In this document: positions 40,142-40,707 of the stretch, piece by piece
Numbering within the stretch: the stretch's first letter is position 1
How the letters are laid out: each line of letters starts with the position of its first letter
Virus record (IMG/VR): IMGVR_UViG_3300006794_000002
DNA length: 64,000 nt
DNA from: a virus
Lineage: Duplodnaviria; Heunggongvirae; Uroviricota; Caudoviricetes
Direction: 5' to 3' (one strand)
Notes under the pieces: generated by a model
What the model was told of the DNA's origin: nothing
Database searches by the model: none
What the model saw: the letters and a program-made list of their open reading frames with translations, nothing else
Position numbers and translations under genes: made by a program

Positions 40142-40707
40142 AACAATCCTCCTTGGGATTTTGACAACGAGAACAAGGCGCAGAAAGCCGTAAACTTGGT
40201 GGATTCGCACCACCTAGGTTTGCTTTGAAGGCAAATTGACAACTAACGTCGAAGTAACTCTCTACTACGCACCGTTATCGTTATGCGTGAATTATTGTGA
40301 CAGCGGGGACAAGTCGGAACAAGTTGAAACCCTCAGGTGAAGAGGGCTGAGGCACCAGCCTCAATTTCCCCATGGTGGGGAAAGTTTGGATCGAACAAAC
40401 GAAGTAACTCGACCCTACGCATCGCTATCGCGCAGCCCTAGCAAGGCTAGGTGAACAGATGTGAACAAGACGAAAAAAGAACGTTTAGCATGTTACCACT
40501 ACACCAAACCGGGATGGTCCCGGTTGACCGATTCGAACGGCCCTCTCTGCTTTCAAGGCAGCGAAGTAACTCTTTTCTACGCATCATCTGAACACCTAGA
40601 CTCGCTAGATGCTACTATGTTATTCCTCCGAGGACAAGATCGAACAAGGCTGTTTTTGGGTTAAAGCACAACCGAAGTAACCCTGCTCTTCGCATCGAAG
40701 TCTTCTA
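40142..40707 (-). ncRNA. Y-RNA-like (YrlA-like) leader: tandem tRNA-like modules and a 4× conserved repeat upstream of rsr
   Basis: Modules:
- 40198–40235: T-arm-like ggtgg-attcgca-ccacc plus tttgc-tttgaag-gcaaa.
- 40365–40400: tttcccca-tgg-tggggaaa plus gtttg-gatcgaa-caaac.
- 40507–40561: aaccggga-tgg-tcccggtt, then gaccg-attcgaa-cggcc, then ctgc-tttcaag-gcag.

Motif CGAAGTAAC…CTACGCATC recurs at 40250, 40400, 40562 and 40673. Confidence 0.4.

What the first reader, a model, noticed from the sequence alone, without database searches (positions are those of the whole stretch)
40250..40700. Four copies of a conserved ~25-nt motif (CGAAGTAAC…CTACGCATC) spaced 110–160 nt apart in the rsr leader
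The repeats are:
- cgaagtaactctctactacgcaccg at 40250;
- cgaagtaactcgaccctacgcatcg at 40400;
- cgaagtaactcttttctacgcatca at 40562;
- cgaagtaaccctgctcttcgcatcg at 40673.

Each follows a tRNA-like module at a fixed distance (~15 nt). On the transcribed strand they read GATGCGTAG…GTTACTTCG. They could be the Ro-binding stem halves of tandem Y RNAs, processing sites, or binding sites for a regulator. Repeated structured units of this kind are not explained by any coding feature.
Basis: seen in the sequence. Interest (0 to 1): 0.65.

Follow-up and report, generated by a model that had tools for sequence, protein, structure and literature searches.

The report
Ro-binding boxes of four Y RNAs
The repeated 25-nt motif is the conserved front end of four tandem Y RNA genes (small RNAs that bind the Ro60 protein, two of them tRNA mimics) lying just upstream of a phage Ro60 gene. 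This is a known kind of RNA, found here in an uncultured phage.

Summary
The four copies are real (4 found, 0.02 expected). The transcribed strand is minus, where the motif reads GRUGCGWAG-N6-GUUACUUCG.

Each copy opens one structured unit between a predicted promoter and the Ro60 gene rsr (38609-40141, minus). The motif has three parts:
- a conserved box, GRUGCGWA, on the 5' side of an internal loop next to the terminal stem;
- G+N6+G, one strand of an 8-bp helix that covaries with a partner about 60-130 nt downstream;
- UUACUUC, a single-stranded junction. This is the published YUAY/variable-loop element of YrlA RNAs.

The same architecture, in 1-5 tandem copies beside rsr, occurs in 18 viral contigs, in 71 of 80 actinobacterial rsr loci, and in phages BRock and Atuin.

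A covariance model built only from bacterial sequences finds all four window units, at 56.9, 30.1, 27.2 and 24.5 bits. Units U3 and U2 carry tRNA-like domains (T arm, 7-bp acceptor-like stem closed by ACCAU, D arm). U1 and U4 are shorter, like YrlB.

The claimed fixed ~15-nt distance to a tRNA-like module is not. Verdict: new member of a known kind. Ro60 binding and expression were not tested.

The parts
40707..40736 (-). Predicted sigma-70-type promoter, TGGACA-18 nt-TATAGT with a TG extension. The expected start lies about 4-6 nt before the box of U4.
   Evidence: It is the only promoter-like site in 38500-41100; shuffles give 1.3 on average, so this is a consensus match only.
40623..40703 (-). 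Unit U4, short and YrlB-like. H1 5' strand 40703-40697; box GAUGCGAAG 40696-40688; H2 5' strand 40688-40679; junction UUACUUCG 40680-40673; apical hairpin 40673-40659; H2 3' strand 40651-40642; 3' box CUUGUCCUC 40638-40630; H1 3' strand 40629-40623.
   Evidence: coordinates; H2 pairs 10/10. (model R1, 24.5 bits, full model span with the middle deleted). (fold).
40454..40592 (-). Unit U3, YrlA-like. Box GAUGCGUAG 40585-40577; H2 40577-40570 with 40479-40472; junction 40569-40562; hairpin CUGC-CUUGAAA-GCAG 40561-40547; T arm GGCCG-UUCGAAU-CGGUC 40542-40526; 7-bp acceptor-like stem 40525-40519 with 40513-40507, closed by ACCAU 40518-40514; D-like arm 40504-40490; 3' box CUUGUUCAC 40469-40461; H1 40592-40586 with 40460-40454.
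   Evidence: 56.9 bits, E 6.5e-11 over the whole window, model positions 1-140..
40298..40430 (-). Unit U2, tRNA-like with an extra anticodon-like arm. Box GAUGCGUAG 40423-40415; H2 40415-40406 with 40325-40316; junction 40407-40400; T arm GUUUG-UUCGAUC-CAAAC 40400-40384; 7-bp acceptor-like stem 40383-40377 with 40371-40365, closed by ACCAU 40376-40372; D-like arm 40363-40348; hairpin GCCCUC-UUCACCU-GAGGGU 40347-40329; 3' box CUUGUCCCC 40313-40305; H1 40430-40424 with 40304-40298.
   Evidence: 27.2 bits. (H2 9/10, H1 6/7). (after permutation, ARAGORN calls tRNA-Val(CAC)).
40162..40280 (-). Unit U1, partly tRNA-like. Box GGUGCGUAG 40273-40265; H2 40265-40256 with 40189-40180; junction 40257-40250; hairpin UUUGC-CUUCAAA-GCAAA 40235-40219; T-like arm GGUGG-UGCGAAU-CCACC 40214-40198; 3' box CUUGUUCUC 40177-40169; H1 40280-40274 with 40168-40162.
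   Evidence: 30.1 bits. (H2 10/10, H1 6/7)..
38609..40141 (-). rsr, the Ro60 ortholog (510 aa, TROVE domain). Shine-Dalgarno AAGGAGG at 40154-40148.
   Evidence: ORF. (PF05731, E 6e-19). (about 50% identity to Ro-like proteins of Streptomyces phages and actinobacteria).
38567..38596 (-). Intrinsic-terminator-like hairpin (13 pairs, followed by a T run) just after rsr. It closes the presumed Y-RNA/rsr operon.

Best explanation
The motif is the conserved 5' region of four tandem Y RNA genes of the bacterial YrlA/YrlB type. They are probably transcribed together with the phage Ro60 gene (rsr) from one promoter and cut into unit-length RNAs. In every unit the RNA ends pair to form a terminal stem, H1. 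The box G1-R2-U3-G4-C5-G6-W7-A8 follows directly, as the 5' side of a conserved asymmetric internal loop. It faces a 3' box, CUUGUYCNC in this phage. G1-C and R2-U extend H1, and C5-G and G6.U can also form. By analogy with characterised Y RNAs, this box is where Ro60 binds, mainly through the 5' strand. G9+N6+G is one strand of an 8-bp helix, H2, whose sequence differs in every unit. UUACUUC is the single-stranded junction (YUAY plus variable-loop equivalent) that leads into the effector module. That module is a circularly permuted tRNA-like domain in U3 and U2, an anticodon-arm plus T-arm fragment in U1, and a simple hairpin in U4. The four RNAs would load the phage Ro60 and tether or gate it toward host partners such as PNPase or tRNA-binding enzymes. 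Shown here: the repeat itself, the helices (by covariation), the tRNA-like elements, the link to rsr, and the wide conservation. Inferred: Ro60 binding, co-transcription and processing, and the downstream function.
For: 1. Statistics and location. Four copies against 0.02 expected, all upstream of and on the same strand as a TROVE gene.
2. The pattern GRTGCGWAGN6GTTACTTCG finds 18 viral contigs. All 18 hits are followed by T-arm-like or other structured modules. Thirteen loci contain a Ro gene in the fetched DNA, and most carry 2-5 tandem boxes.
3. In 71 of 80 actinobacterial rsr loci, the 1.5 kb upstream holds 1-5 boxes. Of 135 such units, 132 have the same H1/H2 frame.
4. Covariation, own test on 35 phage units. 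With each unit's own partner, H1 is 89% paired and H2 85%. With partners shuffled among units, the figures are 48% and 59%, and the maxima over 2000 shuffles are 58% and 66%. Each variable position shows 4-6 pair types.
5. Covariation, other tests. RNAalifold on 38 bacterial sequences predicts 34 pairs, 24 of them with compensatory changes. On the phage alignment A2, 92.4% of cells are paired against 60.6% when shuffled and at most 49% when the partner is slid.
6. Model R1, built from bacterial sequences only, scores U3 at 56.9 bits (E 6.5e-11 window-wide) and U1, U2 and U4 at 30.1, 27.2 and 24.5 bits. It aligns box, H2, 3' box and H1 as proposed.
7. U3 and U2 have canonical T loops (UUCGAAU, UUCGAUC), 7-bp acceptor-like stems and D-like arms with GG. 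ARAGORN recognises the permuted modules as tRNAs.
8. Published features of YrlA match: a conserved CGAA-type motif near the 5' end; YUAY about 8-10 nt later, starting the V loop; only the 5' strand conserved; T, AS and D stem-loops; location within 4 kb of Ro60 on the same strand; and several Y RNAs processed from one precursor upstream of rsr in M. smegmatis (PMC4201824; bioRxiv 10.1101/312249). Thermus phage phiLo Ro60 binds two upstream Y-RNA-like RNAs found through the CGAA motif (PMC12135203).
9. A promoter-like site lies just before U4 and a terminator-like site just after rsr.
Against: - No expression, processing or Ro60-binding data exist for this contig, which is a metagenome assembly.
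- The literal published motif GNCGAAN0-1G is not met. U4 has UGCGAAG. U1-U3 have UGCGUAG, that is CGUA rather than CGAA.
- No Rfam 15 family matches the region even at E<=10. Family assignment therefore rests on my own model.
- The seeds of that model were picked with a box regular expression, so its match to the box is partly circular. The H1/H2 covariation, the T/AS/D arms and the rsr linkage are independent of that choice.
- The E-values for U1, U2 and U4 come from a 701-nt search with a shortened calibration.
- U1 and U4 lack a full tRNA-like domain.
- Base pairing inside the box region is not conserved across clades, so its structure is uncertain.
Confidence: 0.85

Rival explanations
1. 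Cis-acting leader. The four modules stay attached to the rsr mRNA and act as Ro60 binding sites for feedback control of rsr translation or stability, rather than as free Y RNAs.
For: The units lie between the only predicted promoter and the rsr start. U1 ends 7 nt before the Shine-Dalgarno sequence. No terminator-like site separates the units from rsr.
Against: In M. smegmatis, similarly placed RNAs are processed from the precursor and accumulate as Ro-bound RNAs (PMC4201824). In Arthrobacter phage Atuin the homologous units lie downstream of Ro, and in several contigs they sit among tRNA genes, which does not fit a leader role. The two functions do not exclude each other.
Confidence: 0.12
2. 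Processing punctuation. The conserved boxes are recognition sites for an endonuclease (RNase E, RNase III or RNase P-like) that cuts a polycistronic small-RNA precursor, not protein-binding sites for Ro60.
For: The box sits right at the base of each unit, next to the terminal stem. Tandem units must be separated somehow. U2 and U3 also carry RNase P-type acceptor/ACCAU features.
Against: The box is inside the terminal stem H1, not in the inter-unit linkers, so cutting there would destroy the stem that covariation shows is conserved. The linkers themselves are not conserved. Published mapping places Ro60 contacts on the equivalent 5'-strand motif.
Confidence: 0.06
3. DNA-level repeats. The motifs are operator sites for a transcription regulator, or promoters for a phage RNA polymerase.
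For: They are repeated 24-25-bp elements with two conserved halves and a 6-bp spacer in an intergenic region.
Against: The halves are not inverted or direct repeats of each other. The spacer covaries with a distant downstream segment as RNA base pairs, including G.U pairs. The orientation is always the same as rsr. The same box is conserved from phages with 39% GC to actinobacteria with more than 60% GC, always in the same structural frame.
Confidence: 0.02
4. Decaying remnants of tRNA genes, left by rearrangements in a tRNA-rich phage and without function.
For: The phage has 33 tRNA genes 6 kb away. Model R1 also hits junctions between adjacent tRNA genes through its T, acceptor and D positions.
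Against: Those tRNA-junction hits never include the box, H1 or H2 (model positions 26-113 only). The box/H1/H2 frame is conserved with compensatory changes across very distant genomes.
Confidence: 0.02

Closest known systems
YrlA RNAs (S. Typhimurium, M. smegmatis and more than 250 bacteria/phages; Chen et al. 2014, PMC4201824; structure in bioRxiv 10.1101/312249, PDB 6CU1)
   Same: Encoded next to rsr and on the same strand. The terminal stem carries a conserved 5'-strand CGAA-type box. YUAY a few nt further on starts the variable-loop region. The order is T arm, closed acceptor-like stem, D arm. U3 matches a model of actinobacterial rsr-adjacent relatives at 56.9 bits. As in M. smegmatis YrlA, the acceptor-like stem is 7 bp.
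   Different: The box reads UGCGWAG (CGUA in three units) rather than GNCGAA(N)G. The acceptor-like loops of U2 and U3 encode ACCA+U. In U2 an anticodon-like arm is present, so the Ro-binding stem sits at the variable-arm position rather than replacing the anticodon stem. There are four units in tandem. No Rfam family matched.
YrlB / Yrn2-type short Y RNAs (S. Typhimurium, M. smegmatis, D. radiodurans)
   Same: [quoted passage not shown] M. smegmatis YrlB is described the same way: it has a possible T arm and is processed from one precursor.
   Different: Sequence relatedness to the published YrlB RNAs could not be tested. U1 and U4 also keep the UUACUUC junction, although they have no complete tRNA-like core.
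Metazoan Y RNAs (e.g. human/mouse RNY1)
   Same: The stem is formed by the RNA ends, with a conserved 5'-strand box contacted by Ro60 (GGUCCGA). The RNY1 5' end, GGCUGGUCCGAAG-GUAGUGA-GUUAUCUC (PMC6052916), is collinear with the phage GAUGCGAAG-N6-GUUACUUC.
   Different: There is no tRNA-like domain in metazoan Y RNAs. No Rfam Y RNA hit was found. The collinearity beyond CGAAG may be chance. Chen et al. [quoted passage not shown]
Thermus phage phiLo Yrl1/Yrl2 (PMC12135203)
   Same: These are phage-encoded Y-RNA-like RNAs upstream of a phage Ro60 gene, found through the CGAA motif within an internal bulge flanked by a 5'-3' stem. They are bound by phage Ro60 and assemble with host PNPase in vitro.
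   Different: phiLo Ro60 is only about 27% identical to the window protein. phiLo has two units rather than four, and no tRNA-like domain is reported there.
Circularly permuted tRNA genes (e.g. in Cyanidioschyzon merolae; from my own knowledge)
   Same: In U2 and U3 the 3' half of the acceptor stem precedes the 5' half. The two are joined through ...ACCA-U..., so a tRNA-type 3' end and an RNase P site are encoded head to tail.
   Different: Here the break elsewhere in the cloverleaf is occupied by the Ro-binding stem. Nothing shows that a functional tRNA is produced.

Membership tests
YrlA-type bacterial Y RNA | Encoded within about 4 kb of a Ro60 ortholog, on the same strand | tested here: met
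   The units lie at 40162-40703 (minus). rsr is at 38609-40141 (minus) with a TROVE domain.
YrlA-type bacterial Y RNA | GNCGAAN0-1G motif near the 5' end (the putative Rsr site) | tested here: inconclusive
   The position and context fit: the box sits next to the terminal stem, 4-7 nt from the predicted 5' end. The literal motif is not matched. U4 has UGCGAAG and U1-U3 have UGCGUAG. Actinobacterial rsr-adjacent relatives mostly have GCGCAG or GCGAAG, so position 7 varies across this clade.
YrlA-type bacterial Y RNA | Conserved YUAY a few nt downstream, starting the variable-loop region | tested here: met
   UUAC is present in all four units, 8 nt after the box. It is unpaired in the consensus.
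YrlA-type bacterial Y RNA | Long stem formed by pairing of the 5' and 3' ends | tested here: met
   H1 and H2 are supported by compensatory changes. In the window, H2 pairs 8/8 (U3), 9/10 (U2) and 10/10 (U1, U4), and H1 pairs 4-6 of 7, plus G1-C.
YrlA-type bacterial Y RNA | T-like and D-like stem-loops with an acceptor-like stem-loop between them | tested here: met
   Met for U3 and U2. ARAGORN accepts the permuted modules. Not met for U1 (T-like arm only) or U4 (none); these are YrlB-like.
YrlA-type bacterial Y RNA | Significant match to a structure/sequence model of the family | tested here: met
   No Rfam family matched. My own model R1, built from 38 actinobacterial rsr-upstream sequences, gives U3 56.9 bits (E 6.5e-11), U1 30.1, U2 27.2 and U4 24.5. 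Caveat: the seeds were chosen with a box pattern.
YrlA-type bacterial Y RNA | Bound by Ro60/Rsr; carries tRNA-type modifications; substrate of RNase P or the CCA-adding enzyme | not testable with these tools
   This needs immunoprecipitation or EMSA, modification mapping and cleavage assays.
Metazoan-type Y RNA (Rfam Y_RNA and relatives) | Match to the curated covariance model | tested here: not met
   cmscan of 40050-40850 at E<=10 returned only four chance-level hits to unrelated families.
Canonical tRNA gene | Contiguous cloverleaf detectable by ARAGORN or Rfam tRNA | tested here: not met
   No tRNA is called in 40150-40710. A tRNA is called only after in-silico circular permutation.

The most novel reading that the evidence does not exclude
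The box-H2-UUACUUC frame may be a portable Ro60 handle that phages and actinobacteria graft onto different tRNA bodies. Three arrangements were seen: permuted with the stem at the anticodon position (U3), permuted with the stem at the variable-arm position (U2), and non-permuted tRNA bodies inside the same frame (units in L002 and L018). In this phage, U2 and U3 encode a 7-bp acceptor stem, a discriminator A, CCA and U(-1). RNase P cleavage would therefore expose a genuine tRNA-like CCA end on a Ro60-bound RNA. U2, with its intact anticodon-like loop (CAC), might then be recognised or even charged by host tRNA enzymes, coupling Ro60 to the translation or tRNA-surveillance machinery during infection.
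Probability: 0.1. Interest if true: 0.6.

Novelty: new member of a known kind. Interest (0 to 1): 0.3.

Why it matters
The finding accounts for an unannotated 560-nt region as four Y RNA genes. The same tandem arrays sit unannotated next to Ro genes in cultured actinophages: BRock and Atuin each show four model hits in gaps where no feature is annotated.

It also refines the conserved signature of this Y RNA clade. The signature is a 9-nt box with a variable seventh position, an 8-bp helix of free sequence, an invariant UACUUC, and a 3' box YUKKWUCUM. This pattern works as a genome-scan key where Rfam gave no hit.

The variety of tRNA-like cargo held in one constant frame offers material for asking what the effector modules recruit.

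None of this overturns current understanding of Ro60/Y RNA biology.

Tried and rejected
- Rfam at gathering threshold and at E<=10 gave no Y RNA family, only chance hits.
- blastn and megablast against 50,697 phage records gave no DNA match for the region or for 24.5 kb around it.
- Minimum-free-energy folds of single units gave inconsistent pairings of the box, because CUUGUYC-like strings occur twice in some units. The comparative frame resolved this.
- My first idea, that the motif folds on itself (CGWAG...CUUCG), was dropped. It would break H2, and the U/A position does not covary.
- Pairing of the whole box with the 3' box was also dropped. Only G1-C, R2-U, C5-G and G6.U are frequent, and they are not conserved in all clades.
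- A first own-versus-cross complementarity test with a free search over positions was too noisy, because G.U-tolerant 7-mers match often by chance. I replaced it with a fixed-register partner shuffle.
- ARAGORN on U3 permuted with H2 as the anticodon stem found nothing. The duplicated-module trick finds tRNA-like bodies in 93 of 170 modules, but mostly by building an artificial anticodon arm across the junction. It shows tRNA-likeness of the T, acceptor and D parts only.
- The supplementary alignments of Chen et al. 2014 are not held, so a direct comparison with the M. smegmatis or Salmonella YrlA sequences was not possible.

Full report
**Observation.** The four quoted 25-mers are present at + strand 40250, 40400, 40562 and 40673. 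A degenerate pattern allowing two mismatches finds exactly these four sites in 64 kb. Shuffles give 0.02 on average, and 0 of 100 shuffles reach four. They lie in the 560-nt gap between a small ORF ending at 40708 and a 510-aa TROVE-domain (Ro60/Rsr) gene at 38609-40141 on the minus strand. The distances to the nearest T-arm-like hairpin are 0, 19 and 35 nt, and the fourth unit has no such arm.

**Anatomy in the window.** A promoter-like site (TGGACA-18-TATAGT with a TG extension, 40736-40707) precedes the first unit. A strong terminator-like hairpin (38596-38567) follows rsr. Between them lie four units, all on the minus strand: U4 40703-40623, U3 40592-40454, U2 40430-40298 and U1 40280-40162.

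All four share one frame:
- a 5' flank that pairs with a 3' flank (helix H1);
- the 9-nt box;
- a helix H2, made of G9, the six variable nucleotides and the next G (often also UU), pairing with a segment 60-130 nt downstream (8/8, 9/10, 10/10 and 10/10 pairs);
- the unpaired junction UUACUUC;
- a variable module;
- the H2 3' strand, then 2-3 nt, then a 3' box CUUGUYCNC that runs straight into the H1 3' strand.

The modules differ between units.
- U3 has a hairpin (CUGC-CUUGAAA-GCAG), a canonical T arm (GGCCG-UUCGAAU-CGGUC), a 7-bp acceptor-like stem closed by A-C-C-A-U, and a D-like arm with GG in its loop.
- U2 has a T arm placed directly after the junction, the same 7-bp/ACCAU acceptor-like stem, a D-like arm, and an extra 6-bp hairpin with a 7-nt loop, UUCACCU.
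- U1 has a 5-bp/7-nt hairpin, a 4-nt linker and a T-like arm.
- U4 has only a small apical hairpin.

**Comparative evidence.** An exact-pattern scan of viral contigs with GRTGCGWAGN6GTTACTTCG returned 18 loci. Every hit is followed by T-arm-like or other structured modules. Thirteen loci contain a Ro homologue in the fetched DNA. With a slightly looser pattern, most loci show 2-5 tandem boxes on the Ro strand.

The Ro protein is about 50% identical to Ro-like proteins of Streptomyces phages and of many actinobacteria. In 71 of 80 actinobacterial rsr loci, the 1.5 kb upstream contains 1-5 boxes, mostly GGUGCG(C/A)AG-N6-7-NUACUUC. Of 135 such units, 132 fit the H1/H2 frame.

Two cultured phages carry the same arrays. 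Streptomyces phage BRock has four model hits in an unannotated 580-nt gap upstream of its Ro gene. Arthrobacter phage Atuin has four just downstream of Ro. The window itself comes from a metagenome assembly and has no DNA-level relative among 50,697 phage records.

**Structure by covariation.** I tested 35 phage units in a fixed register.
- H1 is 89% paired with its own partner and 48% with partners shuffled among units (maximum 58% in 2000 shuffles).
- H2 is 85% paired with its own partner and 59% with shuffled partners (maximum 66%).
- The six "N" positions each show 4-6 different Watson-Crick or wobble pair types.
- G9 pairs with C or U in 35 of 35 units, and the G after N6 pairs with C in 35 of 35.
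- The next two nucleotides are paired in only 57% and 37% of units.

The register was chosen by maximising pairs near a recognisable 3' box, which inflates the observed values somewhat.

Two further analyses agree. RNAalifold on 38 non-redundant bacterial units predicts H1, H2, the T, acceptor-like and D helices, and four pairs inside the box region, with 24 of 34 pairs showing compensatory changes. On an alignment of 45 phage matches, 92.4% of cells are paired, against 60.6% in shuffles and 38-49% when the partner is slid by 1-3 columns.

Within the box, G1-C and R2-U (or G2-C with a bulged U) extend H1, and C5-G and G6.U/C are frequent. These pairs are invariant or clade-specific rather than covarying. 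The box region is best described as a conserved asymmetric internal loop, or bulged helix.

**Membership.** No Rfam 15 family matches the region, even at E<=10, and none but tRNA/tmRNA matched in the related loci. I therefore built a covariance model (R1: 140 positions, 34 pairs) from the 38 bacterial sequences only. Over the whole window it finds U3 at 56.9 bits (E 6.5e-11) and U1 at 30.1 bits. With filters off on 40100-40800 it also finds U2 (27.2 bits) and U4 (24.5 bits). Each match spans the full model, with the box, H2, 3' box and H1 aligned as in my manual frame. Phage units elsewhere score up to 114.6 bits.

The seeds were selected with a box pattern, so agreement at the box is partly by construction. 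The helices, the T/AS/D arms and the rsr linkage are independent of that selection.

The published description of YrlA RNAs fits point by point (PMC4201824; bioRxiv 10.1101/312249):
- a short conserved CGAA-type motif near the 5' end, likely contacted by Rsr;
- conservation of only the 5' strand;
- T, acceptor-like and D stem-loops;
- location within 4 kb of Ro60 on the same strand;
- in M. smegmatis, two Y RNAs processed from one precursor upstream of rsr, and a 7-bp acceptor stem cleaved by RNase P.

The literal motif GNCGAAN0-1G is not met: the window has UGCGAAG once and UGCGUAG three times. Since bacterial relatives mostly carry GCGCAG, position 7 is simply variable in this clade. A 2025 study identified two Y-RNA-like RNAs upstream of a Thermus phage Ro60 gene by the CGAA motif and showed Ro60 binding and assembly with host PNPase (PMC12135203).

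**Mechanism.** The best-supported reading is that the region encodes four Y RNAs, two YrlA-like and two shorter and YrlB-like. The 25-nt repeat then has three parts: the Ro60-binding 5' strand, one strand of the adjoining helix, and the junction into the effector module.

Three steps are inferred by analogy rather than shown:
- transcription from the predicted promoter together with rsr;
- processing into units;
- loading of the phage Ro60, with tethering to host factors.

**Rivals.** A purely cis-acting autoregulatory leader, nuclease punctuation sites, DNA operators and decayed tRNA remnants are each less consistent with the data. The relevant data are the position of the box inside a covarying stem, the unit arrays downstream of Ro or among tRNA genes in other phages, and RNA-type (G.U-tolerant) covariation.

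**Beyond the question.**
- After circular permutation at the ACCAU loop and removal of the Ro-binding stem, ARAGORN calls U2 a tRNA-Val(CAC) using its natural anticodon-like hairpin. In U2, therefore, the Ro-binding stem occupies the variable-arm position, unlike the crystallised Salmonella YrlA.
- Only about six of 170 surveyed modules behave this way. Two other phage units hold non-permuted tRNA bodies in the same frame.
- Many "V" hairpins have anticodon-arm geometry and a Y-U-NNN-R loop signature.
- The RNY1 5' end (GGUCCGAAG-GUAGUGA-GUUAUCUC; PMC6052916) is collinear with the phage box.

These are leads, not conclusions.

**Verdict.** The feature is a new member of a known kind, with some variant details. 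It is of modest interest to specialists and useful mainly for annotation.

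Noticed in passing
window 40329-40347 (minus), within U2 40298-40430: U2 has an extra 6-bp hairpin with a 7-nt loop, UUCACCU, after its D-like arm. When the module is permuted at the acceptor-like loop and the Ro-binding stem is removed, ARAGORN calls tRNA-Val(CAC). The Ro-binding stem therefore sits at the variable-arm position, unlike published YrlA. The phage's own tRNA set has Val(TAC) and Val(GAC) but not Val(CAC).
   Followed up: partly
window 40372-40376 (U2) and 40514-40518 (U3), minus strand: Both acceptor-like stems are exactly 7 bp and are closed by the loop A-C-C-A-U. 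That corresponds to a discriminator, CCA and a U(-1), so a tRNA 3' end and an RNase P site are encoded head to tail. Homologous units in other phages have unrelated loops.
   Followed up: partly
window 40219-40235 (U1) and 40547-40561 (U3); loci L001-L098: Hairpins between the UACUUC junction and the T arm often have anticodon-arm geometry. Among 41 hairpins with 7-nt loops, 33 show Y-U-NNN-R, 32 have 5-bp stems, and 27 have a 5-nt linker to the T stem. The published model calls this element a variable arm.
   Followed up: partly
L002 about 1978-2110 (+); L018 about 2614-2472 (minus): Two phage units carry a non-permuted tRNA body inside the same box/H1/H2 frame. Rfam scores these bodies as tRNA at 47.1 bits (model positions 5-66) and 50.5 bits. 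The frame accepts different tRNA topologies.
   Followed up: partly
window 31285-31371, 33755-33841, 31910-31992 (minus); also L003 and L006: The Y RNA model R1 also hits junctions between adjacent tRNA genes, using model positions 26-113 only: the T arm and acceptor of one tRNA followed by the D arm of the next. This fits an origin of permuted tRNA-like domains from tandem tRNA genes.
   Followed up: no
window 30313-34453 (minus): An array of 33 tRNA genes lies about 6 kb downstream of rsr on the same strand (minus); in + coordinates it lies below rsr. Ro genes in the related phages BRock and Atuin are also embedded among tRNA genes.
   Followed up: no
window 40591-40613 and 40433-40449 (minus): The linkers U4-U3 and U3-U2 each form a stable hairpin (AGCAUCUAG...CUAGGUGUU and UAGCCUU...AGGGCUG) that is not part of any unit. 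They may be processing signals. They are not conserved in the other loci I looked at.
   Followed up: no
L100 (Streptomyces phage BRock KX925554) 912-1399; L101 (Arthrobacter phage Atuin OK040794) 3247-3831: Each cultured phage has four model hits, in a stretch without annotation next to its Ro-like gene. These appear to be unannotated Y RNA arrays in public records.
   Followed up: partly
5' box of all units, compared with RNY1: The mammalian RNY1 5' end, GGUCCGAAG-GUAGUGA-GUUAUCUC, is collinear with the phage GAUGCGAAG-N6-GUUACUUC: box, 6-7-nt helix strand, then GUUAYYUC. The similarity beyond CGAAG may be chance.
   Followed up: partly
window 36544-38541 (minus): A 665-aa ribonucleotide reductase gene (both RNR large-subunit Pfam domains) lies immediately downstream of the rsr terminator.
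   Followed up: no
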